Below are positions 829 through 54,918 of a DNA stretch of 64,000 nucleotides, piece after piece (position 1 is the stretch's first letter; every line of letters starts with the position of its first letter). Source of the DNA: Torpedo marmorata (Eukaryota); NCBI GenBank assembly GCA_977017645.1, contig OZ360227.1, positions 55,924,001 through 55,988,000 of the forward strand. The letters are read 5' to 3'. The translations under genes were made by a program, and so were the position numbers. The notes below the pieces were generated by a model. It ran no database searches and was not told the origin of the DNA. It was given only the letters and a program-made list of their open reading frames with translations.

Positions 829-1009
829 ACGTAGCAAAATCCCACAGGTAGCAATATACCAATCACCCTAATATGTTAATTAAAAGTGGGAGCAGTCTTC
901 TTTCCTGCCCAACACCCCCTCCCCCTACGTCCTTTTCTTCTTCATCCATCTGCGTTTAAAAGTCTAATCCAATAAACAGCAACCCATCAAGCTTCTTAGA
1001 ACTGCTTCC

Positions 1010-1634
1010 TCTACTTCCTCAGGAGTTTACGGAGGTTTGGTATGACACCAGAAACCCTGGCAAATTTATACAGAGGCGTGGTGGAAAGTGTGCTGACCGG
1101 CTGCATCACGGTCTGGTATGGAAACACCAATACCACTAAGCGTAAAGCCCTCCAAAAGGTAGTGGACACAGCCCAGAACATCACAGGCAAAACCCTCCCC
1201 ACTATTGAGAACATCTGCAGGGAACGCTGTCGTCGGAGAGCAACAGCAATCATCAAAGACCCACACCACCCAGCACACGCTCTGTTCTCACTGCTGCCAT
1301 CAGGAAAGAGGTATAGGTGCCACAAGACTCGCACCACCAGGTTCAGGAACAGCTGCTACCCCTCCACCATCAGACTCCTTAATGACAAAGTCAATCAGAG
1401 ACTCATTTAAGGACTCTTGTGCACTTTATTGATTTTCTTTTGTTCTCTCTGTATTGCACAATCAGTTTGTTTACTTTCATTAACCGTTGACAGTTCTTTG
1501 TTTGTTTACATGTTTACGCTGTGTACAGTTTATTTTTGTGTGGTAATTCTGCTGCCTCCGCAGGAAAAGGGAATCTCAGGGTTGTATGTGATGTCGTGTG
1601 TGTACTCTGACAATAAATCGGAAATCTGAAATCA
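1010..1634 (+). mobile_element. Rex1/Babar-type LINE, 3' fragment with tail
   Basis: ORF 1042..1410 (ESVLTGCITVWYG...KDPHHPAHALFSLLPSGKRYR...RFRNSCYP) is homologous to the C-terminus of 45885..46640; tail ends gacaataaa plus short repeats. Confidence 0.85.
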
Positions 1635-2800: not shown

Positions 2801-3160
2801 CTTCAAGGTTCCTTTTATTGTCACGTAATAATACATTAAAAATGTAACATACTTTTAACTATTGCTTGCCATAAGGCAGACAAAGAGTCGCCATTAGTAT
2901 TGCCCGGCGCCCCTTTCTGAGTGTCGGTGAATTTTCCTCCAGCGCTCCCGCAGCCTCTGCAGCCGCACAGACTCCTGTTCGATCCTTCGGCAACCCGAGC
3001 TCCAAGTCCAAACGTCCGATATGATCAGGAGGCCTTCAGCGCCCAAGGCCCTTCGGGAGCCCTTCTTGCCCTCAGCACCCTCTTGTATCCCAGGTCCAAG
3101 ACCTGGCTCCCATGAGCCAGTGTCCAGCAGCACATGCAGGTCCCCCAACCGCATTGCCTC
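2801..3160 (-). mobile_element. 5'-truncated copy of the CpG-rich non-autonomous retroposon
   Basis: Similar to the tail halves of 40176-41009 and 48866-49680. It interrupts a CR1 fragment that resumes near 3161. Confidence 0.75.
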
Positions 3161-9667: not shown

Positions 9668-9916
9668 TCTCATAGCACTAATAGCCTGAATACGACTGGG
9701 ATTGTCTGATCTCGGAAGCTAAGCAGGCACAGGACTGGTCAGTACCTGGAGGGGAGACCGCCAAGGAACACCAGGTGATGTAGGTTTCTGTGAGGGGTGC
9801 TGGACAAAGTAGCGACTCTCTTGTCTGCCTTACGGTAGACAACAATTAAAGAATTTCATGTATGTTACATTCTAAATGTAGTGTTACGTGACAATAATGG
9901 AACCTTTACCTTTACC
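9668..9916 (+). mobile_element. 5S rRNA-derived SINE (SINE3-type) with Rex-like tail
   Basis: 9668-9787 is colinear with vertebrate 5S rRNA (gtctgatctcggaagctaagcagg...gggagaccgcc...tgtagg), keeping A- and C-box-like motifs. It is followed by about 130 bp shared with the CpG-rich retroposon tail, ending gacaataa and (ccttta)n. Confidence 0.8.
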
Positions 9917-22758: not shown

Positions 22759-22978
22759 TACATCCAGTTTAAACAAGGATCCAGCCGGCCTCTGATGCCT
22801 GTCCTCGAACTCTGCCTCTGAGGTTTTACAGCCCTAATTCCTCCACTGCCGGCAAGGTTAAACACGGCCACACCTGACCACTCTCAAACATAACTGGTTG
22901 GATTTGGACAGAGGTGACTTCAAGTGAAATGTGCGCCGACATCCGAGGTGCCGTCTCGAAAGCAAACAAGGAAAATAT

Positions 22979-25960: not shown

Positions 25961-26831
25961 TGTTACAAAATCAAACCAGCAACAACAGAAGACGCAATGC
26001 AAAAGGGGTAAAATTGAAATTTATATTTATTAAAGACAATTAAACATATAATTTCACAACAATTAACCCCACTATAAACGTCTATAAACACTATTCTTAT
26101 CTAAAAGGTGTGTGTGTGTAAAGCCCAGACCATTACAGTCTGTGCCAAACCCTCATGTAAAAATGGAAAAACTTTCCCCAAAAACCCCAGGTCAGTCATA
26201 AAAACAAGTCAGTCAAAAAAATATAATACAGTCCACAAAAATTCACTCTCTAAGTTCAGGTTCCAAATTCAGCTCTGTGTGCTGGTAGAAGGACTTTTCA
26301 ATGAACGTTGGAGAGAGACAATGACTGTTTATGCTTACGAATACTTGGCTTGTTTTTCCTTCTCTGATGACTTTCCCTTTTCGTAGAGATTCACGAGGAT
26401 TGCGACTCCAAATCAGTATACCACTGATTGAGGCGTGTGCTTGGATCTCACAGCTGGTCTCGCTGATCTCACACCTGTTCTCCACAAAAGTTGCTTTAAC
26501 TCAGGATTTCTCTGAGACAGGAGGCCATGTGCTATTCTTCCAGCCTTTTCCTCTGGGATGCACTAGCCTGAATTTTGCTGTGTTCTCTAGCCTTTGCAAC
26601 TCCAAAACTGCCTGCTTTTTGCAGAGGTTTGCACCTGCCTTTTGCAAAAGTGCAACAAAGTATCTTTTCCACAGCCTGTCTCTCTCTGGTCTCCCTCTCT
26701 CTCTCTCTCTGGGTACACCAAGTCCTGGGCAAGTTAACTCTTTCAGTACCTGGTCCCAGTGTGTACTCCAAAAGACTTCATCCTTCCTGCTGACCATCCA
26801 CAGTCCAAATGGTCAGTCATGGTCCATAACA
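25961..26831 (-). mobile_element. Solo LTR, Gmr1-like family
   Basis: TGTTA...TAACA termini with 4-bp TSD CAAC (25957-25960 and 26832-26835). Confidence 0.95.
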
Positions 26832-28574
26832 CAACAACTTCCAGTTCCCTGAACTCGATCACCTCATGTTTACCATGGATATCCAATCCCTATACACCTC
26901 CATCCCCCATACTGAAGGCCTCAAAGCCCTTAGTTTCTTTCTGGACAATAGAACCAACCAGTCCCCCTCCACCACCACACTCCTCCAGCTGGCAGAACTT
27001 GTCCTCACCCTCAATAATTTATCCTTTGACTCATCCCACTTGCTCCAGGTTAAAGGGGTAGCCATGGTTACCTGCATGGGCCCCAGCTATGCCTGCCTTT
27101 TGTTGGCTACGTGGAGCAATCCATGCTACAAGCCTACACAGGCAAGGCCCCTCAACTCTTCCTCCGCTACATCGATGACTACTTTGGTGCTGCTTCATGT
27201 AACCATGCTCGTTGACTTCATCCACTTTGCTGCCAACTTCCACCCCGACCTCAAATTCACTTGGTCCATCTCTAGCAACACTCACCCTTTCCTCGATCTC
27301 TCTGTCTCCATTTCAGGAGACAACCTCTCGACAGACATCTTCTATAAACCCACCAACTGCCACAGCTACCTCGACTACACCTCTTCCCACCCTGTCCCCT
27401 GTAAGGATTCCATTCCATTCTCTCAATTCCTCCGTCATCGTCGCATCTGCACCCAGGATGAGGACTTCCATGCCAGATCATCAGAGATGTCCTCCTTCTT
27501 CAAACAACGTGGCTTTCCCTCTACCACCATCAACTCAGGCCTCACCCACATATCCTCCATTACCGCACATCTGCCCTGGCCCCCTCCATCCCCACGCGCA
27601 ACAAGGACAGGATTCCTCTTGTCCACCGGCCTCCGCATCCAAAACATCCTCCTCTGCCATTTCTGCTACCTACTACGTGATCCCACCATTAGACACATAT
27701 TCCCCTTGTTACAAATTCAAACCAGCAACGACAGAAGACGCAATGCAAAAGGGGTAAAATTGAAATTACTATTTATTAAAACAATTAAACATATAATTTC
27801 ACAACAATTAACCCCACTATAAACGTCTATAACACTATTCTTATCTAAAAGGTGTGTGTGTAAAGCCCAGACCATTACAGTCTGTGCCCAACCCTTATGT
27901 AAAAATGGAAAAACTTTCCCCAAAAACCCCAGGTCAGTCATAAAAAACAAGTCAGTCAAAAAAAAGAATAATACAGTCCACAAAATCCACTCTCTAAGTT
28001 CAGGCTTCAAATTCAGCTGTGTCTGGTAGAAGTACTTCTGAATGAACGTTGGAGAGAGACAATGACTGTTTATGCTTACAAATACTTGTTTTCTTCTCTG
28101 ATGACGTCCCCTTCTTGTATGTTCATAAGGATTGCAAGTTCCAGAATCACACAGCTAGTCTCGCTGATCTCACGCCTGTTCTCCACAGAAGTTGCTTTTT
28201 CTCAGAATTTCTGTCTGAGACAGGAGGCCATGTGCTCTTCTGCCGGTCTTTTCTCTGACTTCACACAAGCCTGGATCTGGCTGTGTCCTGTAGCATTTGC
28301 AACTCACAACTGACTGTCTGCTTTTCCTGCAGAGATCTGCACCTGCTTTTGCAAAAGTGAAACAAATGTATCTTGTCCAGTCTGTCTCTCTCTCTCTCTG
28401 GTCTCTCTCTGTCTGGGTACACCAAGAGTGCAACAATGTATCTTGTTTGGGTACACCAAGTAGGTGGGGAAGTTAACTCTTTCAGTACCTGGCCGGCCCC
28501 AGTGTCTACTCCAAAAGACTTCATCCTTCCTGCTGACCGTCCGCAGTCCAAATGGTCAGTCATGGTCCATAACA

Positions 28575-28586
28575 CCTCCCACCCGC
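28575..28586 (-). other. Polypurine tract
   Basis: GCGGGTGGGAGG abuts the 3' LTR (GAGGGTGGGAGG in the second copy at 62139-62150). Confidence 0.75.
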
Positions 28587-28706
28587 AAAGGAAATTTTGG
28601 TCTGCAAGAACAAAATTTAGGAAAGTAATTGAGGTGTCACAATATAAACAAAATCTACAATGTTCATCCACAAATACAAAATATGAACTATTTTCATTGA
28701 TAAAGT

Positions 28707-31700
28707 TTAACATCTAGAAAGACAATCAGCAATTGCATTATCTTTCCCTTTTATATGAGTGATTACCAAATTATATTCTTGTAAAATTAGACTCCAATTC
28801 AACAACCGTCAATGCTTATTTTTCATTTTACAAAGAAAAACCAATGGATTATGGTCAGTATACACTATGAGTGGTTTTTGAGCTGTACAGATATACACAT
28901 CAAAGTGTTGTAGAGCCAACACAAGAGCCAACAACTCTTTCTCTATAGTTGAATAATTCCTTTGATGATCATTGAACTTCTTCGAAAAGTAGGATACCGG
29001 ATGGTCAATGTCCTCTTCGTTCTTCTTCTGTAACAGCACCGCACCCACAGCTTCATCGCTCGCATCCACGGCTAAAGAAAACGACTGTTCTAAATTAGGT
29101 GACTTAAGCACAGGTTGGTGGCATAACATGGCTTTCAATTTGACAAATGCTTCCTGACAACCTGTTGACCATACAAATTTTTCTTTCTTTCTAAGCAAAT
29201 TTGTGAGAGGGAGCGCAAGATCAGCAAAGTTTTTACAGAACTTGCGGTAGTAGCCAATCATTCCCAGGAAACTCCTCAGAGTTTTCTTACCAGTTGGAAC
29301 AGGGAACTCGGAAATAGCGACAACCTTTGCCTCTACTGGCGCCAACTGCCCCTGTCCTACTACATAACCCAGATATATAACAGTAGCATGTCCAAACTCA
29401 CTTTTACTTAAATTAACTGTGAGTTTTGCTTTGGACAGTCGTTCGAACAGTTGTTTTAGCTCAAAGACATGCTCTTCCCAGGTCTCACTACTTACAATTA
29501 AATCATCAATGTAAGCACCTGTGTTTTTCAACCCTTGAATCACTGAACTAATCATTCTCTGAAATGTTCCTGGAGCATTCTTCATACCAAAAGGCATAAG
29601 ATTATACTCATACAGCCCAAAAGGTGTTACGAATGCAGAAATCTCCCTAGCCCTTTTTGTCAAAGGAACAGACCAGTATCCTTTTAATAAGTCAATTTTT
29701 GTAAGAAATTTAGCCTTCCCCACCTTGTCTATACAATCGTCTATTCTAGGAATAGGATAAGCATCTGTCTTTGTTACAGCATTTACTTTCCTATAATCAG
29801 TGCAAAACCTAACCGTTCCATCAGGCTTTGGCACTAGAACACAAGGGGAACTCCAATTGGAAGTAGACTTTCAAATAATATTGTTCTTTACCATGTAGTC
29901 AATTTCCTGATCTACCAGTTTGCACTTTTCCGCATTGATTCGATAGGGATGCTGATAAGCGATGGAAATTTTCTGAGGCACATCAGGAAATAAACTTATA
30001 AATTTTAAAAATAACTGACTCATCTCTTCCTTTTCTGAAGTTTTCAGATGAGCCAACTTTGTCTCCAGATTGCGCAAAATCATGGAATTTTCTAACCTCG
30101 GGCTTATCAATTTCTGTGTCCCATGACCCTCTCTGAAACTGGTTTCATCTATCTCCTCCTTACCCTGATCAATAACCAGTACCTCTGGTAAATTTTCAGT
30201 CCCTTTTTGTGGCACCTGTTCAAAATATGGTTTAATCATATTCACATGACAGATCTGTGTGTCTCGTCTGCGATTAGGTGTTTCTGTGACATAGGTGACA
30301 TCATTAATTTTTGACTTAACTCTATAGGGTCCTGAAAATCTAGCCCTAAGAGGATTTGAATGGATGGGAAACAGAACTAATACGTTCTCACCAGGTTTAA
30401 AAGTTCTCATTTTCGCCTTTCGATCATACCAAACCTTCATTCTCTGTTGAGTGGCCTTTAAATTCTCCTTTGCCATCTCACAAGCCCTATGTAATCGATC
30501 CTTAAATTTGGAAACATAATCTAACAGATTTAAATGCCCATCACGATTAATCCACTGTTCTTTTAATAATCTTAAAGGACCTCTCACCTCATGTCCGAAA
30601 ACTAACTCAAATGGACTAAAACCAAGTGATTCTTGGACAGACCCCCTCGCTGCAAATAACAACAAATGAACCCCCTCATCCCAATCCTTTTCCTTCTCAC
30701 AACAATAGGTTCTAATCATGGTTTTCAAAGTCGAATGGAACCTCTCCAAGGCCCCTTGACTTTCTGGATGGTACGCAGAGGATACAATCTGTTTAACTCC
30801 TAGTTCATCAACCACTTGTTGGAAAATGCCTGACATGAAATTACTGCCCTGATCTGATTGAATTTCCCTTGGCAAACCTACCAAGGTGAAAAGCTTTACC
30901 ATAGCCTTTACAATTTACTTTGCTTTAATGTTTCTCAGAGGAATGGCCTCTGGAAATCTGGTGGCTGCACACATAATTGTTAACAAATATTCATTCCCCG
31001 CTTTGGTTTTGGGCAATGGGCCAACACAGTCCACAATTACTCTCGAGAAAGGCTCACTGAAAGCAGGGATAGGTTGCAAGGATGCCACCGGGGGACCCTG
31101 ATTAGGTTTACCCACCACCTGACAAGTGTGACAGGCCTGGCAAAAGCTTACAACCTCCCTTCTCAAACTGGGCCAATAAAATTGTTTCATTATCTTCCTT
31201 ATAGTTTTCTTCACCCCAAGATGACAACCTAGGGGTGTACTATGAGCCAAAGTTATTATTTCATCCCTATATACTTTAGGGATTACAACCTGCTGCACTA
31301 CTGCCCATTCTTCATTGGCAGGAACATCACGTGGTCTCCACTTTCTCATCAACACCCCATCTTTTTCATAATACCCTACTGGCACCTTTTTAATCTCCTC
31401 TTCAGAGAGAACCTTATCCCTCAACTCAACAAGATCAGGATCGTCCTTTTGCCTTGCTATTAACTCCTGTCGGGATAGTGACAAATCTGTGCCTTTAGGT
31501 GTCTTATCAGTGGATGGGTGTAACATAGGAGATTGCTCAACCTTTTCCAGGTTTTCTTGATTATCACTTACTTTTTCTTTTACTAAGTTATTTTCCACTG
31601 CCTTCTCTATAGTGACATTTTTCTTAGACATGGCCCTGGTTATGGCACATGCCGGATAAATATCAGAGTCTTTCTCTGATTTATCAATGACTGGCTTAGT

Positions 31701-33338
31701 GGTCATTCACACTGCAGGAACTACTTTACCCTTGGCCAAGTCATTGCCTAACAACAGTGAGACTCCTTCTACGGGCAACTCTGATCTCACTCCTATTATA
31801 ACTGGTCCTTCCACCAAGTCTGAGTCCAATACTATTTTGTGCAAAGGAATGGACTCTACCTCACCACCAATTCCTTTAATTAAATTTATGTCACGAGTGT
31901 CAGTAGCTTCACAAAATTCCAAGACACTATCTAACACAAGTGACTGAGCAGCTCCAGTATCTCGCAAGATTTTCACTGGAACTTGTTTTGATCCTGCCTT
32001 AACTGAAACAAAACCATCAGTCACAAAAGGTTTAAATACATCTTTAACTTTGTCAGTAAATTTATCTCCTTCCTGGGTGTTATGCATCTTCTCACTCTGA
32101 ATACAAGCATTAGGTGTTGCATCCTTTTCTCTCTTCTTTTTCAACACTGGACAGCTTGCTAGCATATGACCAGCCTTCCTACAGTAGTGGCAAATGGGAC
32201 CCGAGTTGTTTTCCCTTTTCCACTTTCCTTCAACCCTTTCCTTAACACCAATTCCAAATTTACTTTCCACTTGCTTCTGATTATCCACCGTGACCTTTTG
32301 GAAAATTCTACCTGACGTCCACTTAGGCTTGTGGGTTAAAGCATATTCATCTGCTAACTTAGCTGAATTTTGCCAAGTTTTCACCTCCTTTTCATCTAAG
32401 TATGCCTTAATATCCTCAGGAACACACCTTTTTATCTCCTCGATTATTATCAATTCTCTCAATTGATTGTAATCATTGTTTACTTCCTTAGATGTGCACC
32501 ACCTGTCAAAACACACAACCTTTTCATAGGCAAACTCTGTATAAGATTGGGTTGCTGATCTTTTTAAATTTCTAAACTTCTGTCTATAAGCCTCTGGAAC
32601 TAACTCATAAGCCTGGAGTATAGCCTTTTTCACCGTTTCATAATCAGCAGCTTGCTCCGTGGTAAGAGTAGAATAATCTTGCTGAGCTTTTCCTTTTATT
32701 ACACTTTGCAACATAAGAGACCATTGGTCTTGTGGCCATTTTAATTTCACAGCCACCTTCTCAAAATGTTGGAAGTACTTATCTATTTCTGCCTCCTCAA
32801 ATGGAGGAACCAACCTAATTTCCCTACTAGCCAAAAACCCCTCAGCAGGATGACAAATTTGATCTTGGCGCTCTTCTTGTCTCCTCTCATTTTCCAACCT
32901 CATCTTTTCCAGCATATATATCCTATTTTTCTCCTCGTTCTCATATCTCTTTTGTTCTCTGTCTATCTGCATGTCTAATCTCTTTCATTCCAATTCCAAT
33001 TCTAATTTCTTTTGTTCCCTGTCTGCCTCCAATTCTAATTTCTTTTGTTCTCTGGCTGCCTCCAATTCCAATTTCTTTAATTCCAACTGTATGTTTTCAG
33101 AAGGTTTACCCTTGTGAAACTGCTCTAACACGCTCTCCTCCAATTTTTTTTCTTTTATATAGTATTTGACAATTTTTCTCCCAATCTCTGCCTTTTTCAT
33201 AAATGGTTTTACGGAAGCAATGCCCAACTCTGTTGCTATAGCCACTAACTGTTCCTTTTTCGCCTTTTTTAAAGTATCAGTTTCAGGTGATTCCAAAAAA
33301 TGTTCTACATCCGTTGTTGCTGGTTTTTTGTTACACAC
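28707..33338 (-). pseudogene. Gag-pol polyprotein, one 1544-codon frame with five in-frame stops
   Basis: SCAN-like capsid (YELVPEAYRQKFR), knuckle CHYCRKAGHMLASC, protease LRDTGA, integrase HHCC plus DCVGP/SDQG/ERFH plus GPY, RT (FCTDYRKVN, YIDD), RNase H (VDASD, YTDHNPL). Stops at 32985, 31707, 30915, 29871 and 28809 all lie in the same frame. Confidence 0.92.
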
Positions 33339-33418
33339 ACACTAGCTTTTAATTAGCTTTACAAAAGGAATGCCTTAAACCAAACTGGGATTCCTTCAAT
33401 TACCAAGATGGATTTTGA

Positions 33419-33442
33419 TTCAAATCCTAGGACGAGCCCCCA
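33419..33442 (-). other. Primer binding site for tRNA-Pro
   Basis: TGGGGGCTCGTCCtaGGATTTGAA starts 3 nt inside the 5' LTR boundary; the complement of the tRNA-Pro 3' end is TGGGGGCTCGTCCGGGATTTGAA. Confidence 0.9.
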
Positions 33443-34717
33443 ATTTGTTACAAATTCAAACCAGCAATGACAGAAGACGCAATGCAAAAGGGGTAAAATT
33501 GAAATTACTATTTATTAAAACAATTAAACATATAATTTCACAACAATATAACCATTATAAACGTCTATAACACTATTCTTATCTAAAAGGTGTGTGTGTG
33601 TGTGTGTCAAGCCCAGACCATTACAGTCTGTGCCCAAACCCTTTTGTAAAAATGGAAAAACTTTCCCCAAAAACCCCAGGTCAGTCATAAAAAACAAGTC
33701 AGTCAAAAAAAAGAATAATACAGTCCACAAAATCCACTCTCTAAGTTCAGGCTTCAAATTCAGCTGTGTCTGGTAGAAGTACTTCTGAATGAACGTTGGA
33801 GAGAGACAATGACTGTTTATGCTTACAAATACTTGTTTTCTTCTCTGATGACGTCCCCTTCTTGTATGTTCATAAGAATTGCAAGTTCCAGATCAGTATA
33901 CCACTGCTTTAGGCGTGTGCTTGAATCTCACAGCTAGTCTCGCTGATCTCACGCCTGTTCTCCACAGAAGTTGCTTTTTCTCAGAATTTCTGTCTGAGAC
34001 AGGAGGCCATGTGCTCTTCTGCCAGTCTTTTCTCTGACTGCACACAAGCCTGGATCTGGCTGTGTCCTGTAGCCTTTGCAACTCACAACTGACTGTCTGC
34101 TTCTTGCAGAGATCTGCACCTGCTTTTGCAAAAGTGAAACAAATGTATCTTGTCCAGTCTGTCTGTCTCTCTCTGGTCTCTCTCTGTCTGGGTACACCAA
34201 GAGTGCAACAATGTATCTTGTCTGGGTACACCAAGTAGGTGGGGAAGTTAACTCTTTCAGTACCTGGCCCCAGTGTATACTCCAAAAGACTTCATCCTTC
34301 CTGCTGACCGTCCGCATTCTAAATGGTCAGTCATGGTCCATAACACCCTCTCCGCCTTCCGCAGGGACCGCTCCCTCGTGACTCCCTTGTCCACTCCTCC
34401 CTCCCCACCAATCGTCCCCTTGCCACCTACCCCTGTGACCGCAGGAGATGCTCCACTTACGTCCATACTTCCTCAGCATCATTCGGGGCCCCAAACAGTC
34501 CTTCCAAGTGAAGCAACATTTCACTTGTGAATCTGCAGGGGTCATCTACTGCATCCGGTGCTCCCGCTGTGGTCTCCTCTACATCAGAGAGACTGGACGC
34601 AGACTGGGAGATCGCTTCGCTGAGCACCTCGGCTCTGTCCGCCACAATAGCGTGGATCTCCCAGTGTCCGCCATTTCAATTACCCATCCCATTCCCTTGC
34701 TGATACGTCTGTTCATG

Positions 34718-34766
34718 ACCGAATTTCATGACTTGTTCATGACAATAAATTCTGATTCTGATTCTG
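34718..34766 (+). mobile_element. 49-bp Rex1-type tail-only insertion
   Basis: accgaatttcatgacttgttcatgacaataaattctgattctgattctg matches the end of the LINE at 46750-46792; flanked by atg/atg. Confidence 0.85.
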
Positions 34767-35699
34767 ATGGTCTCATGTTCTGCCAGACTGAGACCACCCG
34801 TAAATTGGAGGAACAACACCTCATCTTCCGGCTGGGCACCGTCAAACCGGATGGCATTAATATCGACTTCTCTGGCTTTCGTTAAACCTCCCCCCCCCAC
34901 CCACTTCTTCGCTCGTCGCCTTCCCCAGCCTGTCTCTCCATTCCGTCTCCTTTCGCACAGACATGATAAATTCTACCTAGTCCCTTATCACATCCAATTA
35001 ACATCTTTTTTGGTCTGGATTCCTCCCCCATTGTTTGAATTCTGAGACTTTCTGAGATTTCCTGCTTCTGGCTCATTCTGCTTATTCCTTGAAGTAGGGC
35101 TCAGGCCCGAAATGTCAGCAGTATATCTTTGTCTCCTACAGACACTGAAAAACCGGCTGAGTTCCTCCAGCATTTCAGTGTGTTTTTACTACAATCACAG
35201 CATCTGCAGACTTTCGTGTTTCACTCTGGATAGATAAATAGTTCAGGAAGATCATAGAGTCGTAGACTTGCCCACACTGACCAAAATGTCTCATCTGCCT
35301 GTGTTTAGCCAATATTTCTCCCATCCTATCCATGTTTCTGTCCAATATTTTTTCTTAAACGCTCCAATAGTACCTGCCTCAACCACCTCCTCCGGCAGCC
35401 TATTGCATACACCTGTACATTGTACTGACGTGTATGACAAGAAACTCTCATACTTTTCACACAAGAGAACACATTCAATTCACAAGCCTGACTGCTGGAT
35501 ATCTGTCACGTAAGTCCTCTATTTATGTACAGTATGTATTATTTAATATAAATACTGTATGATAGGAGAGACTGTGATGTCTCTAGCTTAAGCCACTTAC
35601 CATCCAATAAAGCTCTACATAACACAAGGAACAGCATCTCATCTTTAATCCAACCATTCACAAACTTCCCACCTGATCATGTGACTGAACAACTTCAAA

Positions 35700-38123: not shown

Positions 38124-38898
38124 AAGATTCAAATTCAAAATTATTTTTATTGTCATGTAATAATACAGAAAATGTAATATTACATGAAATTTCCTTTTGC
38201 CTGCCGTAAGGCAAATAAAGCGTCTCCATTAGCATTGCCCAGCGCCCATTACAGTAAGCGAAAGAAAAGTTAAAGAAATTCCCTCCACAGACACTGAGTG
38301 TCCATGGATTCGCCTCCAGCGCTCTCACAGTCTCTCAGGCAACCCGAGATCCAGGTCCAAACATCCGATACGATCAGGAAACATTCAGGAGCCCTTCTTG
38401 CCCTCAGCACCCTCTGGAATCCTGGTTCCGATACCTGGTTCCCATGAGCAGTCTCCAGTAGCCTGCAGCCTGTGTGAGTTCTTCGACCACAAGTTGCCTG
38501 CCGCCCGAAGCCTGTGTGGGTCCTTCAGCCGCTGAGCCCCTCGCTGGTCCGCTGCCGTGGTCACCGTTCTGTAGGCTTTGTATCCTATGCTTCTCCTTCT
38601 CAACAGGGGGTGTTCTAACTGTTTCCTGGTTCGCTGCTCTCCTGGAGTCTGCAACCCCTCATGGTGCGCTGCCCAGCACAGGTGCTGCCATCTTGGGCGC
38701 AGACACCATGGTTGCAGGATTTTTAAAAAGTACTTTCGGTTCCTTTAACAGGCTGCTTAAAGCCTGTTTGGAGCCGTCGCCATCAGGACCAGGTAGTAGG
38801 ACCCTGTGGAGCAACGCTGTGTCTCCGCTCCCTGCTCTCCTGGGTCCACACCAGTGGCAGCGCTCTCGTTACAGCAGCTCTGGCAGCCCCGCCATTTT
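38124..38898 (-). mobile_element. CpG-rich non-autonomous retroposon, older copy
   Basis: Colinear with 40176-41009; starts AAAATGGCG and ends catgacaataaa plus short repeats. Confidence 0.8.
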
Positions 38899-40175: not shown

Positions 40176-41009
40176 CAAGATACAAGATTCAATTTATTGT
40201 CATGCAATAAAACAGTGTCATATTACACGAAATTCCTTTTGCCTGCTATAAGGCAGACAGATTCGCCATCGGCAGAAATTGCCTGAAGCGCCTCTTACAG
40301 ACAGAGAAAGAGAAGCAAAAGAGAGTCCCCCCAGAGTCACCCAGTGTCCATAGATTCGCCTCCGCAACCACACAGAGTCCAGTCCAAACCATCGGCAACC
40401 CGCGCTCCAGATCCGAACCTCCGACACGGTCAGGAACCCTTCAGCGCCTTCGGCACCCCCTCGCATCCCGGTTCCGATACCTGGTACCCCTTCAGCCAGT
40501 TTGAGCCAGTCTCCAGCAGTCCACAGCCCGATGTGAGTCTCCCGACAGCAGTCTCCAGCAGCCCACAGCCTCCACGGGTTCCTCGCCTCGAGTCGCCAGC
40601 AGCCCGCCGCACGCATTGGTCTTTCAGCCGCAGAGCCCCCTCACCGGTCCCCCCCGCTGTGGTCACCGTCCTGTGGGTCGTCTCCTCTGCTTCTCCTTCT
40701 CAGACGGGGGATGGTCTCCCCGTTTTCTGGTGCCCTGCGCCAGTCCTCCGCTCCCCTGGAGTCTGCAACCCTTCGTGGCTGCTGCCGATCAGAGGCGCTG
40801 CCATCTTGGGTGCAGACCCCGCGGTCGCGGGATTTTAAATAAAACTACCGTCGGCTCCTTTAACGGGCCGTTCAAAGCCCGTGCGGAGCTGACAGCAGTC
40901 GACTGGGCAGTTGGACCCCGCGGGAGCGCTGTATCTCCGCTCCTCGCTCCCCGCGGGTCCGCACCAGCAGCAGCGCTGCCGTTACAGTGGCTCCGACAGC
41001 ACCGCCATC
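40176..41009 (-). mobile_element. CpG-rich ~830-bp non-autonomous retroposon, apparently full length
   Basis: Starts GATGGCG, has internal CAAGATGGC, no recognisable protein domain, Rex-like stem-loop tail and short aatcttg-type terminal repeats. Confidence 0.8.
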
Positions 41010-42009
41010 ATTTATGGTCTTATAGTCTAATTCTAGATGTGCTTCTAACCCCACATATTCTTTGACATCAAAACAATGCCCATATCCTTACCTCCATTCA
41101 TCTGCTGCTGAAACCCTCAATCACCATTGTATCCATCAGAAATGACCCTTCCAGTTTGAAGAATTTTATCCCAACTTGCACAAATTATCCCATAAGCATG
41201 TTGACTAACATTGGTTCCAGGTCTGGGAATACTCATTTTAAATTCTCATCTTTGCATTCAAATTCTTGTGTGTTGCTTCTGCCTCCCTTGTGACTTCATT
41301 TAGCCCAACAATTCATCAAGATCTCAGGATTGCCACTGCCCATTTACACTAATCCTGCATTGGTCATCATTTTGTATTCTCCCCACATTCATATTGACTC
41401 CCCCAGATTCTACCGCTCACCTACAGACTAGGGCCAATTTAAAGTGGTCAATTAACCTACTCGTTTTACTCATTTCATTTATAAAAGACCCAAGGTTACA
41501 GGATACCGTTCATCAATCTCACAGCCTGCTGGAAGAAGCGATTTCCCAGCCTGGCAGTCCTGATTTTGATGCTCCTGATGCTAGTCGGTCAAAGATACTG
41601 TGTGCTGGATGGTAGGGATCCTGAATAATTCTTTGAGCCCTTCTCTTCCATGCAGGATTGGTTGGTGCAGAGGAGTTGATTATGGGTTGGTGGTTGGAAG
41701 TGGATATCCTCGCTAATTTCACTTTCTGCATACTTCATGAGAACATAAGCCTGCTCCGCCATTCAACATGATCACGGCTGATCTGGCCGTGGACTCAGCT
41801 CCACCTACCCGCCTCTTACCCATCACCCTTAATTCCCTGACTGTGGAAAAATCTACTTGTCTGTATCTTAAATACAGTTAATGAGGCAGCCACTACCACT
41901 TCCTTGGGAAGAGAATTCCACAGATTCACCACTCTGGGAGAAGCAGTACCTCCTCATCTCCATCCTAAATCTACACCACTGAATCTTTTTCAATTAAAAA
42001 AAAGGTGTA

Positions 42010-43547: not shown

Positions 43548-44443
43548 TGTTACAAATTCAAACCAGCAACGACAGAAGACGCAATGCAAAAGGGGTAAAA
43601 TTGAAATTATTATTTATTAAACACAAGTAAACATATAATTTCACAACAATTAACCCCACTATAAACGTCTATAAATTCTATTCTTATCTAAAAGGTGTAT
43701 GTGTGTGTGTGTAAAGCCCAGACCATTACAGTCTGTGCCCAACCCTTATGTAAAAATGGAAAAACTTTCCCCAAAAACCCCAGGTCAGTCATAAAAAACA
43801 AGTCAGTCAAAAAAAAGGATAATACAGTCTACAAAATCCACTCTCTAAGTTCAGGCTTCAATACAGCTCTGAGTCTGGTAGAAGTACTTCTGAATGAACG
43901 TTGGAGAGAGACAATGACTGTTTATGCTTACAAATACTTGTTTTCTTCTCTGATGACGTCCCCTTCTTGTAGGTTCATAAGGATTGCAAGTTCCAGATCA
44001 GTATACCACTGATTTAGGCGTATGCTTGAATCTCACAGCTAGTCTCGCTGATCTCATGCCTGTTCTCCACAGAAGTTGCTTTTTGTCAGAATTTCTCTGA
44101 GACAGGAGGCCATGTGCTATTCTGTCAGTCTTTCTCTGACTTTGCACACACCTGGATTTGGCTGTGTCTTGTAGCCTTGCAACTCACAACTGTGTCTGCT
44201 TTGCAGAGATCTGCCCCTGCTTTTTGCAGAAGTGAAACAAATGTATCTTGTCTAGTCTGTGTCTCTCTCTCTGGTCTCTCTCTGTCTGGGTACACCAAGA
44301 GTGCAACAATGTATCTTGTCTGGGTACACCAAATAGCTGGGGAAGTTAACTCTTTCAGTACCTGGCCCCAGTGTATACTCCAAAAGACTTCATCCTTCCT
44401 GCTGACTGTCCGCAGTCCAAATGGTCAGTCATGGTCCATAACA
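43548..44443 (-). mobile_element. Solo LTR, Gmr1-like family
   Basis: TGTTA...TAACA with TSD ACAA (43544-43547 and 44444-44447). Confidence 0.95.
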
Positions 44444-44574
44444 ACAAATAAACTTGAACTTGAAGTGTCTTGATTCAGTGCTGGTACTTTTGACTTGCTT
44501 CTCATTTGTCTAAATCAAGAGGTACATGGAGAAGAGCAAGGAGCAAGATAAATAACTTTACAGTGCTTCCATCA

Positions 44575-46795
44575 GGCCAACACATCACATGCGAGACCAG
44601 GGGAACCAACACACTCGACCACTGCTACACCACCATGAAGAACGCATACCGAGCAATACCACGACCGCACTTCGGCAAGTCTGATCACCTGGCTGTACTT
44701 CTACTCCCGGCGTACAAGCAGAGACTGAAGACCACAGCACCAGCGGTGAGGACGTCAAAGGTATGGTCGAGGGGGGCGGAGGAGCGTCTGCAGGACTGCT
44801 TTGAATCGGTGAACTGGAACATATTCAAGAACTCATCCATAGACCTGAATGAATATGCAACAGGTGTCACCGACTTCATCAAGAGCTGCGTGGATGAGTG
44901 TGTGCCCACGTGCAAATACAGGGTGTTCCCCAACCAGAAGCACTGGATGAATCAGAGAATTCGCAACCTGCTGAGGGCAAGAACAAGGGCGTTTAAGGCC
45001 GGGGATCGGGATCTTTACAAGAAGTCCAGGCACGACCTGCGGAAGGCCCTCTCTAAAGCAAAGTGGCAATTCCGGAGGAAGCTAGAGACAGAGACAGATA
45101 CACGCCAGCTATGGCAGGGAGTGCAGGCCATTACAGACTACAAAGCGAGGGCGAACACTATAGACAGCTGTGATGCTTCACTACCCGATGAGCTGAACAC
45201 CTTCTATGCCCGATTTGAGAAGAAGAACCAAACAGTGCCTACTAGAATCCCTGAAAAGGCTGAGGACCCTGTGATATCTGTCTCTGAGGGCGACGTCAGA
45301 ACATCATTCAAGAGGGTGAACCCTCGCAAGGCGTCAGGCCCTGACGGCGTACCTGGCAGGGTACTGAAAATCTGCGCCAACCAACTAGCTGGAGTGTTCA
45401 CGGACATTTTCAACCTCTCATTGCGGCAGTCAGAGGTTCCCACCTGCTTCCCGGTACCCAAGAAGAGTAGTGTGAGCTGCCTCAACGACTACCGCCCAGT
45501 AGCACTAACCTCTACTGTGATTAAATGCTTTCAGAGGCTGGTCATGGCCAGAATTAACACGAATCTAAGCAAAGATCTGGACCCACTGCAATTCGCCTAT
45601 CGTCATAAACGCTCCACAGCAGGTGCAATATCACTGGCTCTCCACTCAGCTCTGGATCACCTCGAAAACAACAATTCATACATACAGCTGCTCTTCATCG
45701 ACTACAGCTCGGCCTTCAATACCATTATTCCCTCAGTGCTGGTCAAGAAGCTACAAACTCTAGGCCTCTGTACCCCACTCTGCAACTGGATCCTTGACTT
45801 TCTCATCGGAAGACACAGTCAGTACGAATTGGAAACAACGTCTCCTCCTCACTAATTATCAACACAGGCGCACCCCAAGGATGTGTGCTTAGCCCATTGC
45901 TCTACTCGTTATACACCCATGACTGTGTGGCCAGGCACAATTCCAATGCCATCTACAAGTTTGCCGATGACACCACAATTGTCGGCAGTATCACAAATGG
46001 CAATGAGGAATCGTACAGGAGGGAGATAGATCAGCTTGTTGAATGGTGTAATGACAACAACCTCGCGCTCAACGTCAGCAAAACCAAGGAAATGATTGTG
46101 GACTTCAGGAGGAAGTCAGGGGAACACGACCCAGTCGTCATCGAGGGCTCAGTAGTGGAGAGGGTCAAGAACTTCAAATTCCTGGGTGTCAACATCTCCG
46201 AGGATCTGTCCTGGAGCCTCCACGTTGATGCAATCACAAAGAAGGCTCGCCAGCGGCTATACTTTGTGAGGTGTCTGAGGAGATTTGTTTTGTCACCGAA
46301 GACTCTCGTAAACTTCTACAGGTGTACCGTGGAGAGCATTCTGGCTGGTTGCATCACTGCCTGGTATGGAGCTACCAATTCTCAGGACAAGAATAAACTC
46401 CAGAGGGTTGTTAACTCAGCCTGTGACATCACAGGCACCAGACTTCACTCCATCGAGGACATCCACATGAGGCGGTGTCTTAAAAAAGCAGCCTCTATCC
46501 TCAAAGACCCCCACCACCCAGGCCATGCCCTCTTCACTCTGCTTCCATCGGGAAAAAGGTACAGGAGCCTAAAGGCGAGCACTCAACGGCACAAGGACAG
46601 CTTCTTCCCCGCTGCCATCAGATTCCTGAATAATCAATGAACCAAAGACACTGCCTTACTTTTCGTGCACTATTATTTATATTTTTTTTATAGTAACATC
46701 ATAAGATGGTTATAATATGAATGTTTGCACTATGATGCTGCCGCAAAACACCGAATTTCGTGACTTGTTCATGACAATAAATTCTGCTTCTGAAA
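44575..46795 (+). mobile_element. Rex1/Babar-type LINE, 5'-truncated, end of APE plus RT, one frameshift
   Basis: TLDHCYT...HFGKSDH, KASGPDG, NDYRPVALTS, DYSSAFNTI, PQGCVLSPLLYSLYTHD, KFADD; ORFs 44506..45855 and 45885..46640. Confidence 0.9.
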
Positions 46796-48160: not shown

Positions 48161-48838
48161 TGTAAGAGCCATAGGCTCACTACTTACCCGATGTTTTGGC
48201 CGTGGGCGCCGGCGGTGTTCCGGGGCCCGTGGGCCTCTTCCATTAGGCTGCACGTGCGAGTGCCGCCACCGCTTGCGGAGCTGGAGGGTGGCGGCGCTCG
48301 CGTGGTTGGCTCGGCGGCGGCGGCTTCGGCCGGGGCCGGCGTATCCATCAGTGCACATGCGCACTGATGGACTGGGTCGACGCGTGCGCGGTTGTCTCGG
48401 CCCCGGCGGCGAGCAGTTGGAGCCGGGGCCAGCGCGTGTACTACGGAGCATGCGCGGGTGGGACCTGCGCGTTTAAATGGAGGTTCCCCCGCGCGAGTCG
48501 ACAGTTGAAAACCTGAGGAGGGTGAGTTGGGTGGACAATTCCTGTCGACCGTTTTGACATCGTTTAACATCGTTTAGGATCGTTTAATACTTTTGGAACT
48601 CGTTTAACACGTTTAGGAACACTTTTTATAACCTTTTAAATCGTTTTAGATCTTTTTACATTATTTTACATCATTTCAAGAAATGTTTATATTAAAGTCT
48701 GAAGATGACTGCAAGTCTAATGTAAATAAAGGTTTTTTGAACATTTTGGACTTTGTTGGTAAATGAATGAAAACGCGTCGCAGACAAACACCTAACTTAG
48801 CCTCCAAGCGACTATTTTTATTGGACGAAGTCGCTACA
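48161..48838. mobile_element. Solo LTR of a second, unrelated family (678 bp)
   Basis: TGTA...TACA termini with 5-bp TSD CTAAG (48156-48160 and 48839-48843); excision restores the L1 frame YFQLRLYLRNTLGP. Confidence 0.85.
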
Positions 48839-48865
48839 CTAAGATATAAACGTAACTGAAAATAG

Positions 48866-49680
48866 CGGCAGCGCTGCCGCTGGTGCGGACTCGCGTGGGA
48901 GCGGAGATACAGTGCTCCCGCGGGGTCCAGCCGCGCAGTCGACTGCCGTCGGTTCCGCACGGGCTTTGAACGGCCCGTTAAAGGAGCCAACAATGGTTTT
49001 ATTTAAGATCCCGCGACCGCGGGGTCTGCGTCCAAGGTGGCAGTGCCTTTTATCCGGCAGCAGCCACGAGGGGCTGCAGATTCCGGGGAAGCGGAGGACT
49101 GGAGCAGGGCACCAGAGGACGGGAAGATCACCCCCGTCTGAGAAGGAGAAGCGGAGGAGACGACCCATGGGATGGTGACCACGGCAGCGGACCGGTGAGG
49201 GGATCTGAGGCTGAAGGACCAGTGCACGCGGCGGGCTGCTGGCGAGTCAAGGCGAGGAACCCGCGGAGGCTGTGGGCTGCTGGAGACTGCTGTCGGGGGA
49301 CTCACAACGGGCTGCGGACTGCTGGAGGCTGGCTCGAACTGGCTGGAGGAGTACCAGGTATCAGAACCGGGATGCGAGGGGGTGCCGAGGGCGCCCTGAC
49401 CGTGTTGGAGATTCGGATCTGGAGCTCGGGATGCCGATGGTTTGGACTGGACTCTGTGTGGCTGCGGAGGCTGCGGAAGCGCTGGAGGCGAATCTATGGA
49501 CACTTGGTGACTCTGGGGGGACTCTCTTTTGCTTCTCTTTCTCTGACTGTAAGGAATGTTAGAGGCGCTTAGGCAATTTCTGCCGGTGGCGAATCTGTCT
49601 GCCTTGTAGCAGGCAAAAAGAAATTTAATGGAATATGACACTGTCTTATTACTATGACAATAAATTGAATCTTGAATCTT
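48866..49680 (+). mobile_element. CpG-rich non-autonomous retroposon, slightly 5'-truncated
   Basis: Highly similar to the reverse complement of 40176-40981; ends gacaataaattgaatcttgaatctt. Confidence 0.85.
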
Positions 49681-53031: not shown

Positions 53032-54190
53032 CTTTAGTGCTGTATAAATCTGTTTCTCTCAGACCACCTCACCTGACCTTGCTCTCCCTCCACTGAACTC
53101 TTCATTCATGCCTTTGTCACCTCCAGATGCAACGATCCCATTGCACTACTGGCTGGCTCTCATTATTCCTAAGGCCATCCTAAATCATGCTGCCGGGAAC
53201 GTAACTCGCACCAAATACGATTGACGCAATGAACAAATAAACAAACTGCATGATGGAACTGCATCCGTGGAGGGAAGGTGGACAATTAATGCTTCAGGTG
53301 GCAACCCTGCTTCCGGACTGAGAACGGAGAGCGGAGAGAGGGGGTGAAAGGGTCTGGAGGTGATAGGTGGACCATGGAGGGGTGAAGGGTGATGGACGTG
53401 GAGCCCAGTGGGGTGGAGTTGGGAGACAAATGGACAGATGGAGCCAGGAGAGGGGGGGGGGATGGAGACACTGCTAAGGCAAGGAGATGGGTGGAACTGG
53501 ATAAGGGAGAGACAGTGGCCTGATGGAAACATTGGAGGAGGGGATTTGGAGAATGGGGTGAGAAGATGGTGGAGGGAAAAGGAGTTGGGTTACAGGGAGC
53601 TGGGGGGTTGGTGTCAGTGTGAGAGAACCTAGGTGGACGAGGAGAGAGAAAGATACCAAGGTGGAGTGGGCATTTGAAATTGAAGAATTCATACCATTAG
53701 GTTGTAGACTACCCAGACAGAATCCGAGGTGTTTGCTGTTTCGCGGCATCTGCAGTCTCTTGTGCCTCCATTAACTCGTTACCTAGAACCATAGAACATT
53801 ACAGCACAGAAACAGGCCCCTTCGGCCCTTCTAGTCTGTGCCGAACCATATTTATTGCCTAGTCCCACTGACCTGCACCCAGTCCATATCCCTCCACACC
53901 TCTCCCATCCATGTACCTGTCCAAATTCCTCTTAAATGTTAAAATTGAGCCCGGATTCACCACTACAGCTGGAAGCTCGTTCCACACTCCCACCACTCTC
54001 TGTGTGAAGAAGTTCCCCCTCACGTTCCCCCTAAACTTTTCCCCTTTCACCCTTAACCCATGTCCTCTGGTTTGTATCTCACCTACCCTCAGTGGAAAAA
54101 GCCTACCTACATTTACTCTGTCTATCCCCCTCATAATTTTAAATACCTCTGTTAAATCTCCCCTCATTCTTCTACACACCAGGGAATAAA

Positions 54191-54918
54191 TCAGAATCAG
54201 TATTAGAATTTATTGTCATGAACAAGTCATGAAATTCGGTGTTTTGCGGCAGCATCATAGTGCAAACATTCATATTATAACCATCTTACAACAACAATAT
54301 AAAAAATATAAATAATAGTGCACGAAAAGTAAGGCAGTGTCTTTGGTTCATTGTTCATTCAGGAATCTGATGGCAGCGGGGAAGTAGCTGTCCTTGTGCC
54401 GTTGAGTGCTCGTCTTTAGGCTCCTGTACCTTTTTCCCGATGGAACAGAGTGAAGAGGGCATGACCTGGGTGGTGGGGGTCTTTGAGGATAGAGGCTGCT
54501 TTTTTAAGACACCGCCTCATGTAGATGTCCTCGATGTAGTGAAGTCTGGTGCCTGTGATGTCACAGGCCGAGTTAACAACCCTCTGGAGTTTTTTCTTGT
54601 CCTGAGAGTTGGCGCCTCCATACCAGGCAGTGATGCAACCAGCCAGAATGTTCTCCACGGTACACCTGTAGAAGTTTCCGAGAGTCTTCGGTGACATACC
54701 GAATCTCTTCTGACACCTCACAAAGTATAGCCACTGGCGAGCCTTCTTTGTGATTGCATCAATGTGGAGGCTCCAGGACAGATCCTCGGAGATGTTGACA
54801 CCCAGAAATTTGAAGTTGACCCTCTCCACTACTGAGCCCTCGATGAGGACTGGGTCGTGTTCCCCTGACTTCCTCCTGAAGTCCACAATCATCTCCTTGG
54901 TTTTGCTAACGTTGAGCA
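54191..54918 (-). mobile_element. Rex1-type 3' fragment
   Basis: Closely similar to 46068-46792, in reverse orientation. Confidence 0.9.

What the first reader, a model, noticed from the sequence alone, without database searches (positions are those of the whole stretch)
40176..41009. CpG-rich ~830-bp non-coding retroposon family with no tRNA or 5S head
Seen: four copies (2801-3160, 38124-38898, 40176-41009, 48866-49680) with a common 3' end and variable 5' truncation, as expected for target-primed retrotransposition. No Pol III boxes or protein domain are recognisable. The two copies with intact 5' ends begin (A/G)ATGGCG, and there is an internal CAAGATGGC, both YY1-like motifs typical of LINE internal Pol II promoters. 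Inference: a non-autonomous Pol II-driven element using Rex1 machinery that disperses CpG-island-like promoter sequence.
Basis: partly seen in the sequence, partly recalled or inferred. Interest (0 to 1): 0.7.

Follow-up and report, generated by a model that had tools for sequence, protein, structure and literature searches.

The report
Gene-less Rex1-tailed jumping element, fixed start
An abundant, roughly 830-base repeat in a fish genome (likely a ray or shark) codes for no recognisable protein, starts at a fixed point, ends in a tail like that of Rex1 retrotransposons, and likely copies itself with their enzyme from a predicted built-in promoter.

Summary
The family is real. Four copies lie in the window, 65-85% alike, with a shared 3' end. 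The 5' end is fixed. Two copies start at the same ATGGCGG. In public contigs of four organisms coverage stops there, and 194 contigs of one other organism run on into unrelated flanks. So it is not the 3' UTR of a longer LINE.

The last ~110 nt form two predicted hairpins plus GACAATAAA and a microsatellite. This tail resembles Rex1-type tails in the window, best the diverged one at 1.0-1.6 kb, and not CR1, L1 or Penelope ends. A 5S-headed SINE at 9668-9915 carries the same tail.

The head has no tRNA, 5S or other Rfam match, folds strongly (z -7.9), and carries two YY1/TISU-like motifs about 200 nt apart. A similar motif starts some full-length Rex1-type ORFs.

Best reading: a Rex1-mobilised, ORF-less, probably Pol II element of the SIDE/bipartite-LINE kind. 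The origin of the head is unproven. CpGs decay about 3 times faster than other sites, so copies are probably methylated, not working islands. New variant of a known kind.

The parts
40176..41008 (-). Full-length copy (younger subfamily), 833 nt, inserted in a CR1-type 3' tail with no target duplication; 5 extra bases at 41009-41013
   Evidence: host tail continues directly across the site in 985 and 1113 contigs of two runs (table 7)
40740..41008 (-). GC/CpG-rich head predicted to fold into a row of hairpins; starts ATGGCGG (fixed 5' end)
   Evidence: fold z -7.94, 0 of 200 shuffles as stable; windows 1-300 give z -6.4/-6.5 (40k), -4.1/-4.6 (49k), -2.2/-2.4 (38k), while the later windows lie between +2.0 and -1.9; coverage edge and loose ends at 41008
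40800..40807 (-). Internal AAGATGGC (TISU/YY1 core), its ATG 204 nt after the first; the frame reads S-A-P-K-M-A-A-P
   Evidence: core sequence from PMC2518114
40681..40701 (-). Purine tract predicted to pair with the pyrimidine tract at 40304-40324 (21-bp long-range helix)
   Evidence: pair probability 0.89-1.0 in 40k and 49k, absent in 38k; inverted repeat I1 in the 49k copy
40176..40300 (-). 3' tail module: hairpin 1, A-rich linker, GAATTTC, hairpin 2, GACAATAAA, microsatellite; shared with the 5S SINE and like Rex1-type tails
48863..49680 (+). Near-full copy (younger subfamily), about 24 nt 5'-truncated, inside an L1/Tx1-like ORF2
38124..38895 (-). Full-length copy of an older subfamily; with its flank it reads AAAATGGCGG
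2801..3160 (-). 5'-truncated copy of the older subfamily
9668..9915 (+). 5S rRNA-headed SINE (SINE3 type): 5S head 9668-9786 joined directly to the same tail
   Evidence: Rfam RF00001, 42.8 bits, whole model matched; 74% over 119 nt to the 3k copy, E 3e-15
1009..1633 (+). Remnant of a diverged Rex1-type LINE (ORF end plus 3' UTR) with the tail most like the element's; second remnant at 25049-25313 (-)
   Evidence: 56% to the 46k LINE C-terminus; 55-58% to fetched full-length relatives; tail z 5.7-7.4
44466..46794 (+). 5'-truncated Rex1-type LINE (endonuclease remnant, RT, PF09004); related pieces at 54190-54917 (-) and 34718-34768 (+); shares only the terminal motifs with the element

Best explanation
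It is an ORF-less retroposon with a fixed 5' end and a Rex1-type 3' tail, likely transcribed by Pol II from a predicted YY1/TISU-type promoter in its own head and likely copied in trans by a Rex1-clade reverse transcriptase. SHOWN: the repeat family, the common 3' end, 5' truncation, the fixed 5' boundary, no recognisable protein or small-RNA head, tail likeness to Rex1-type LINEs, and the same tail on a 5S SINE. INFERRED: (1) YY1 binding at the 5' ATGGCGG and at the AAGATGGC about 200 nt in sets transcription at the element's first bases. (2) The Rex1 protein recognises the two-hairpin GACAATAAA tail and primes on nicked DNA through microsatellite microhomology, which would give the missing target duplication and the 5' truncations. 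(3) The head most likely descends from the 5' start module of a Rex1 LINE by internal deletion or tail joining, as in a SIDE or bipartite LINE, possibly as two ~200-nt units. (4) Inserted copies are likely methylated and lose CpGs.
For: FIXED 5' END. Two window copies start in one column. In 4 of 4 runs laid (organisms A, B, D, E) contig cover runs over the whole element and collapses in the bin holding 41008. In run X2, 194 contigs go on past 41008 for a median 255 nt with agreement 0.39, i.e. unrelated flanks, A-rich in element orientation. TAIL. A covariance model built from the 4 element tails and the SINE tail was run over both strands of the window. After its 5 training sequences and one antisense hairpin, the next 6 of 21 matches were 5 Rex1-type LINE ends and one unassigned tail of the same build. 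The 40k, 49k and 38k tails align to the 1.6-kb LINE end with z 5.7, 7.4 and 6.1, with 0 of 200 shuffles as good. Against two CR1 ends, an L1 end and a Penelope end they give z -1.0 to 2.0. HEAD. AAGATGGC is the TISU core, which lies at +5 to +30 of start sites and binds YY1 (PMC2518114). Mouse L1 uses ~200-bp CpG-rich monomers, each with a YY1 site near which starts cluster (PMC10620060). Of 65 fetched relatives of the window's LINE that keep an N-terminus, 26 begin M-A and 7 carry K-M-A or M-A-P-x-M-A, as the element's inner motif reads. Rex1 has no ORF1 and is most abundant in rays, and some ORF1-less CR1-group elements carry 100-500-bp repeated units near the 5' UTR (PMC13343379). Runs of four or more T in the head and body of 3 of 3 long copies argue against Pol III (terminator rule recalled).
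Against: No full-length Rex1 5' end from this genome was available (no genome held), so homology of the head to a LINE 5' end is not shown. None of 387 fetched LINE proteins matches the element beyond noise (best 24.6 bits). Two shark N-terminal extensions do not align to any of 18 frames (best z 2.8, antisense). Each Rex1 tail match to the model is weak alone (E 0.17-0.87) and leans on the shared GACAATAAA. The 3k copy and the SINE tail do not match the 1.6-kb end (z -0.3 and 1.9), the 3k copy scores z 2.5 against the L1 end, and two other Rex1-like ends score no better than chance. M-A starts are also common in host proteins (recalled), so the internal-Met background (44 of 1124) flatters the count, and the proteins are related gene calls, not independent. 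Likeness of the outer and inner head units is significant in only 1 of 9 pairings. Tail covariation does not beat shuffles (42 of 500). The name Rex1 is my assignment from domain order and recalled motifs; no call labels it.
Confidence: 0.55

Rival explanations
1. Captured host leader: the tail is Rex1-type, but the head and body come from the CpG-island first exon of a TISU-bearing host gene or a structured lncRNA, joined to the tail by template switching, as the 5S RNA was in the neighbouring SINE.
For: The 5S SINE shows this tail module being joined to a foreign RNA exactly where the shared module begins. TISU occurs in about 4% of human promoters, enriched in housekeeping genes. No protein-level trace of Rex1 lies in the body. 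GC-rich heads of unknown origin are described on bird RTE SINEs (PMC4844689).
Against: The inner motif reads like the M-A-P-K-M-A-A start of a fetched full-length relative (P0010). Both motif-led frames close early (8 codons, and 14-34 codons) and have no known product. No source gene could be sought.
Confidence: 0.27
2. No promoter of its own: copies are read through from host transcripts, and the folded head fixes the 5' end, by self-cleavage (ribozyme) or by stopping reverse transcription.
For: The folding signal is confined to the first ~300 nt and is very strong. Of 78 predicted pairs, 7 change on both sides among 3 copies. The LINE clades known to give bipartite derivatives mostly carry 5' ribozymes (PMC5786205).
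Against: No Rfam ribozyme. My loose HDV-type descriptor found none in 3 of 3 copies, though it had no positive control. An unrelated GC-rich patch at 48200-48530 also folds at z -2.7 to -5.6. The covariation term is only -0.2 kcal/mol. The 5' end falls on a YY1-like motif.
Confidence: 0.1
3. An ordinary Pol III SINE whose head is an uncatalogued or much-decayed small RNA.
For: It shares its tail with a 5S SINE, and the head is structured.
Against: No tRNA, 5S, 7SL or snRNA match. No B box, and internal T runs in 3 of 3 long copies. At 830 nt it is long for a SINE (recalled).
Confidence: 0.05
4. Fragments of the 3' UTR of a longer autonomous LINE, or a solo LTR.
For: The tail is LINE-like, and two of four copies are 5'-truncated.
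Against: The 5' ends coincide and the flanks beyond are unrelated. The window's Rex1-type 3' UTRs are about 140-230 nt and AT-rich. No target duplication and a variable microsatellite end rule against an LTR.
Confidence: 0.03

Closest known systems
SIDEs / bipartite non-autonomous LINEs (Persaeus from Zenon; RIME; RTE-N, Vingi and R2 derivatives)
   Same: No ORF, no small-RNA head, no Pol III promoter, LINE-type 3' end, defined 5' end, high copy number possible, presumed Pol II transcription (PMC6740152 passages; PMC5786205).
   Different: The tail is Rex1-type. PMC5786205 lists only RTE, Ingi, Vingi and R2 as sources of ORF-less bipartite LINEs, and PMC6740152 adds a CR1/Zenon case. The element is ~830 nt against ~270-350 nt for Persaeus. 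Homology of the head to the partner's 5' end, which defines the class, is not shown here.
GC-rich-head SINEs of birds (BuceSINE, ManaSINE2)
   Same: GC-rich head of unknown origin on a LINE-derived tail (PMC4844689).
   Different: Those carry a bipartite AviRTE tail and a GGCCCCGG motif. Here the tail is Rex1-like, and 0 of the 4 window matches to that motif fall in the element.
Rex1/RSg-1-tailed SINEs (SINE2-5_NV with Rex1-24_NV; 5S-headed OS-SINE1 with RSg-1)
   Same: A non-autonomous element riding on a Rex1-type 3' end (table in PMC3747384; placing RSg-1 in the Rex1 clade is recalled). The 5S SINE at 9668-9915 is of this kind.
   Different: They have tRNA or 5S heads and Pol III promoters; the 830-nt element has neither.
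Mouse L1 5' UTR monomers / TISU promoters (functional analogy only)
   Same: CpG-rich units about 200 bp long, each with a YY1 site near the start; the extended L1 site shares GCCATCTTGG with the element's inner site.
   Different: L1 is autonomous, and its monomers are clear tandem repeats. Here the two units are barely alike and no activity is measured.
Known chondrichthyan SINEs (HE1, SacSINE1, CmiSINEs)
   Same: Same broad host group; non-autonomous retroposons.
   Different: tRNA heads with CR1/L2-type tails. I did not align their sequences to this element.

Membership tests
SIDE / bipartite non-autonomous LINE | No protein-coding capacity | tested here: met
   Pfam: nothing above cut-off in 5 of 5 ORFs. 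No longer protein matches the sense ORF (weak). tblastn of 387 LINE proteins gives noise only.
SIDE / bipartite non-autonomous LINE | 3' end related to a LINE 3' end | tested here: met
   z 5.7-7.4 to the Rex1-type end at 1.4-1.6 kb for 3 of 4 copies; model ranking. The exact partner family is not in the window.
SIDE / bipartite non-autonomous LINE | 5' part homologous to the 5' end of the partner LINE | not testable with these tools
   All Rex1-type copies in the window are 5'-truncated, no genome is held, and collection scans were empty. Only a motif-level likeness was seen.
SIDE / bipartite non-autonomous LINE | Defined 5' end across copies | tested here: met
SIDE / bipartite non-autonomous LINE | Pol II transcription from an internal promoter | not testable with these tools
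   Motifs only; contigs cannot show starts.
Pol III SINE (SINE1/2/3, SINEU, SINE28) | Head derived from tRNA, 5S, 7SL, snRNA or rRNA | tested here: not met
   the same search does find the 5S head of the neighbouring SINE
Pol III SINE (SINE1/2/3, SINEU, SINE28) | A and B boxes in the head, no internal T-run terminator | tested here: not met
   No B box; runs of four or more T at about 135-190, 630-690 and later in 3 of 3 long copies (box patterns recalled)
GC-rich-head RTE SINEs (BuceSINE, ManaSINE2) | GGCCCCGG motif in the head | tested here: not met
GC-rich-head RTE SINEs (BuceSINE, ManaSINE2) | Bipartite RTE 5'/3' UTR tail | not tested
   No RTE sequence was at hand; the tail resembles Rex1-type ends instead.
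Stringent-type LINE/SINE tail | Conserved 3' stem-loop with compensatory changes | tested here: inconclusive
   92.7% of cells paired over 23 pairs in 5 sequences, against 25-63% when slid; only 1 pair changes on both sides, and 42 of 500 shuffles reach the covariation score.
LINE 5' self-cleaving ribozyme (HDV-like) | Nested double pseudoknot at the 5' end | tested here: inconclusive
   No Rfam hit; own descriptor negative in 3 of 3 copies, without a positive control.
LTR / solo LTR | Fixed TG...CA ends with a 4-6 bp target duplication | tested here: not met
   No duplication at the 40k site, where the host tail is contiguous; the 3' end is a variable microsatellite.

The most novel reading that the evidence does not exclude
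The first Rex1-clade SIDE, and a very successful one: a Pol II 'SINE without a small RNA' whose head is a doubled TISU/YY1 start module. Rex1 LINEs would use that one motif as both promoter and start codon behind an almost absent 5' UTR. The parasite would keep the promoter, close the reading frame at once, and hide the rest of its leader in hairpins so that its RNA competes for Rex1 protein. One portable tail module would serve both this Pol II element and a Pol III 5S SINE in the same genome.
Probability: 0.25. Interest if true: 0.68.

Novelty: new variant of a known kind. Interest (0 to 1): 0.45.

Why it matters
If right, it adds Rex1 to the few LINE clades that give rise to ORF-less, Pol II-driven parasites, and points to how Rex1, which has no ORF1 and whose promoter I did not find described in the papers searched, starts transcription and translation. 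One genome then holds a natural pair, the same tail under a 5S head and under a GC-rich head, for testing the proposed route from bipartite LINE to SINE. In practice it is an abundant, probably unclassified repeat for ray and shark annotation (4 copies in 64 kb here) that could be mistaken for CpG islands. It is not a new mechanism of retrotransposition.

Tried and rejected
COLLECTIONS
- Whole genome: none held, so there is no genome-wide copy count, consensus or search for a full-length partner.
- DNA motif scans: 0 hits in viral contigs and metagenome contigs. No match in phages.
- Rex1-type protein scans: 1 and 100 pattern matches, none confirmed.
- Earlier findings: 3 look-ups, nothing.

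EXPRESSION AND DEPTH
- No RNA holder listed. Run X11 is only guessed to be RNA. Its higher element-to-CR1 depth ratio (22, against 1.0, 0.25 and 5.5 in X1, X2 and X10) comes from contig depths and is not used as evidence.
- A depth step in X2 at the inner motif (about 300,000 to 80,000) is absent in X1 and is not used.
- The ratio of head depth to flank depth is not a copy number.

PROTEIN ORIGIN OF THE BODY
- Rejected.

HEAD
- Tandem duplication of the head: 1 of 9 pairings significant, while 2 of 18 control pairings reached z 2.4-2.5; kept only as a lead.
- HDV-like ribozyme: not found.
- Long-range helix: not kept in the older copy, so not claimed as conserved.

PARTNER
- The 44.5-46.8 kb LINE as direct partner: it shares only the terminal motifs and has another microsatellite; z is 3.6-4.2 for one copy and 0.2-1.6 for the others.

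LITERATURE
- Ten searches found no description of this element or of a Rex1-derived SIDE.
- Repbase, Dfam and most subscription papers could not be searched, and no supplements were opened, so an existing library entry is not excluded.

Full report
SETTING. The window is repeat-rich vertebrate DNA with an intronless frizzled-like gene and remnants of CR1-, L1-, Penelope-, Gypsy- and Rex1-type elements (clade names from recalled motifs). The best non-fused protein match to its Rex1-type LINE is from a shark (59%), and rays have the highest Rex1 content in PMC13343379 (passages). A cartilaginous fish is therefore likely but inferred. No whole genome is held.

OBSERVATION. Four copies exist: 40176-41008 (-), 48863-49680 (+), 38124-38895 (-) and 2801-~3160 (-), 65-85% alike. 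The 40k and 49k copies share one set of indels, and the 38k and 3k copies share another, so there are at least two subfamilies. All end in GACAATAAA plus a short microsatellite. The 40k copy sits in a CR1-type tail. Contigs of two runs show that tail continuing without a break (985 and 1113 contigs), so the insertion made no target duplication and added five bases at the 5' junction. The 49k copy sits in an L1-like ORF2. GC is 52-60% and CpG observed/expected 0.56-0.86, against 0.45 for the window. There is no tRNA, no Rfam family, no B box and no protein domain.

THE 5' END IS REAL. The 40k and 38k copies, only 69% alike, start at the same ATGGCGG. Public runs hold the stretch: 12 of 21 listed runs share a fifth of the words or more, from 6 organisms and 6 studies; X1 may be the window's own sample. 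I laid 4 of the 21 runs, from organisms A, B, D and E: 135,389, 72,679, 4,297 and 3,878 contigs. In all four, cover spans the element and collapses in the bin holding 41008. For X2, 194 contigs continue beyond 41008 for a median of 255 nt with an agreement of only 0.39, A-rich in the element's orientation. That table shows 24 of 3,248 loose-end rows, and this row appears for X2 only. A shared upstream sequence, as a LINE body would give, is not seen. Four copies in 64 kb and this number of distinct contigs mean a very abundant family; an exact copy number cannot be taken from contig depth.

THE TAIL. The last ~110 nt fold in consensus into two hairpins separated by an A-rich linker and GAATTTC, then GACAATAAA. 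Pairing is 92.7% over five sequences, but covariation is not above shuffles. The window holds several remnants of single-ORF endonuclease-RT-PF09004 LINEs, which I call Rex1-type. Their relatives are widespread in teleosts, and Rex1 lacks ORF1 while Zenon has a poly-A tail; no call names the clade. A covariance model made only from the element and SINE tails ranks these LINE ends next: of 21 matches, 5 are training sequences, 1 is the antisense hairpin, and the next 6 are 54206-54270, 1527-1620, 34706-34752, 46720-46784, 25054-25133 and an unassigned tail at 3360-3433. Each is weak alone (E 0.17-0.87). Pairwise, the three long copies match the end of the diverged LINE at 1.0-1.6 kb over about 130 columns, including both hairpin regions (z 5.7, 7.4, 6.1). 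They do not match CR1, L1 or Penelope ends (z at most 2.0). The 3k copy and the SINE do not match the 1.6-kb end, and two other Rex1-like ends (near 10.1 and 43.5 kb) score at chance (55 pairings in all). So the mobilising enzyme is likely a Rex1-clade protein of a family nearer the 1.6-kb remnant than the 46-kb copy; the exact partner is not in the window.

THE HEAD. The first 269 nt fold at z -7.9. The signal is confined to positions 1-300 and weakens with divergence: -6.4, -4.1 and -2.2 for the first window of 40k, 49k and 38k. An unrelated GC-rich patch also folds well (z -2.7 to -5.6), and three copies give little covariation, so selection on structure is suggested, not shown. Two ATGGC motifs lie 204 nt apart. 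The inner one is AAGATGGC, the core of TISU, which in human promoters lies at +5 to +30, binds YY1 and often supplies the start codon (PMC2518114: abstract, section 5, passages). The outer one reads AAATGGCGG with its A-rich flank in the 38k copy. In mouse L1, ~200-bp CpG-rich monomers each carry a YY1 site near which starts cluster (PMC10620060, passages). Full-length relatives of the window's LINE often start the same way: 26 of 65 with a recognisable N-terminus (from 387 fetched) begin M-A, and 7 of 65 carry K-M-A or M-A-P-x-M-A. One begins M-A-P-K-M-A-A, and the element's inner motif reads S-A-P-K-M-A-A-P in two copies. This is a motif-level link only. M-A is a common start in host proteins (recalled), the proteins are related, and nothing after the motif matches at protein level. 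Likeness of the two head units is significant in 1 of 9 pairings.

CpG FATE. Between 40k and 49k, 28 of 140 CpG positions differ against 45 of 648 others. Between 40k and 38k it is 48 of 122 against 101 of 615. A Rex1-type pair shows the same excess (8 of 48 against 28 of 673). The definition of a CpG site, CG in either copy, inflates these ratios somewhat. In X1, 121 of 189 listed variant places are C>T or G>A. Of the 37 in-element variants shown (3 flank rows dropped, 244 rows not shown), 13 would restore a CpG in the 40k copy. Copies therefore decay like methylated repeats, and the idea that the family scatters working CpG-island promoters is not supported.

MECHANISM. Shown: family, ends, truncation, lack of coding and small-RNA parts, tail likeness and tail sharing. 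Inferred: Pol II initiation set by YY1 at the head; recognition of the tail hairpins by a Rex1 protein made from another RNA; target-primed reverse transcription with microsatellite microhomology; later methylation. Least certain is the origin of the head: a Rex1 5' start module (0.55 for the whole model), a captured host leader (0.27), a promoterless structured end (0.10), or other (0.08).

COMPARISON AND NOVELTY. It works like a SIDE or bipartite non-autonomous LINE. PMC5786205 (parts 1-4 of 5 read) names RTE, Ingi, Vingi and R2 as the only sources of ORF-less bipartite LINEs and expects Pol II transcription. PMC6740152 (passages) adds a Zenon-derived case and does not mention Rex. Membership is not established, because the defining 5' homology could not be tested. 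It is not a Pol III SINE. GC-rich-headed SINEs of birds (PMC4844689 and PMC7245038, passages) are a precedent for the rival. SINEs with Rex1-type tails are known (PMC3747384, table passages; PMC6274825, passages on the Rex1 3' end). Described shark SINEs have tRNA heads (PMC5499810, passages). Ten literature searches found no account of this element; Repbase and Dfam were out of reach and supplements were not opened.

VERDICT. A real, abundant, apparently undescribed variant of a known kind; interest 0.45.

Noticed in passing
window 9668-9915 (+): 5S rRNA-headed SINE with the same tail as the element, lying in a decayed Rex1-type ORF end (9420-9640); a SINE3 on a Rex1-type tail.
   Followed up: partly
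window ~48184-48862: Unclassified ~680-bp insert in the L1-like ORF2, about 10 nt from the 49k copy. It has a very GC/CpG-rich half with a 28-bp palindrome (48344-48371), all 4 GGCCCCGG of the window and strong folding (z down to -5.6), then an AT-rich half with 10-bp repeats (48551-48676). Single copy in the window; no terminal repeats found.
   Followed up: partly
proteins P0010, P0012, P0059, P0015, P0125: Full-length Rex1-type ORFs often begin in a TISU-like context (M-A-A, M-A-P-x-M-A-A). Two shark gene models have long, repetitive N-terminal extensions before the endonuclease (about 150 and 290 aa), which may include host exons.
   Followed up: partly
window 27706-34347 and 25957-26835, 43548-44443, 55750-56622, 59656-60525, 61241-64000: Gypsy-type LTR retrotransposon with both LTRs, several solo or partial LTRs (78-95% alike), and a second partial copy at the window end.
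   Followed up: no
window 2059-2800: 20 copies of a 37-bp unit, 98% alike, resembling a CR1 ORF fragment and abutting the tail of the 3k copy.
   Followed up: no
window 13869-14604: 15 copies of a 49-bp unit, 94% alike.
   Followed up: no
window 21049-22833 (-): Intronless frizzled-family ORF, 594 aa stop to stop, FZD5/8-like by recalled sequence, with a CCAAT-rich upstream region near 23600-23900.
   Followed up: no
window 3360-3433 (-), 25305-25365 (+), 10140-10210 (+), 44446-44465 (+): Further short LINE-type tails ending in ACAATA plus different microsatellites, pointing to many Rex1-type lineages with one tail grammar.
   Followed up: partly
window 34718-34768 (+): About 50-bp extreme 3' stub of a Rex1-type LINE inserted into a Penelope-like ORF, 96% like the 54-kb copy's tail.
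   Followed up: no
run X2, window place 40303: 146 contigs match the pyrimidine tract and then leave into other sequence (median 61 nt, agreement 0.46): a sister family with another tail, or low-complexity matching.
   Followed up: no
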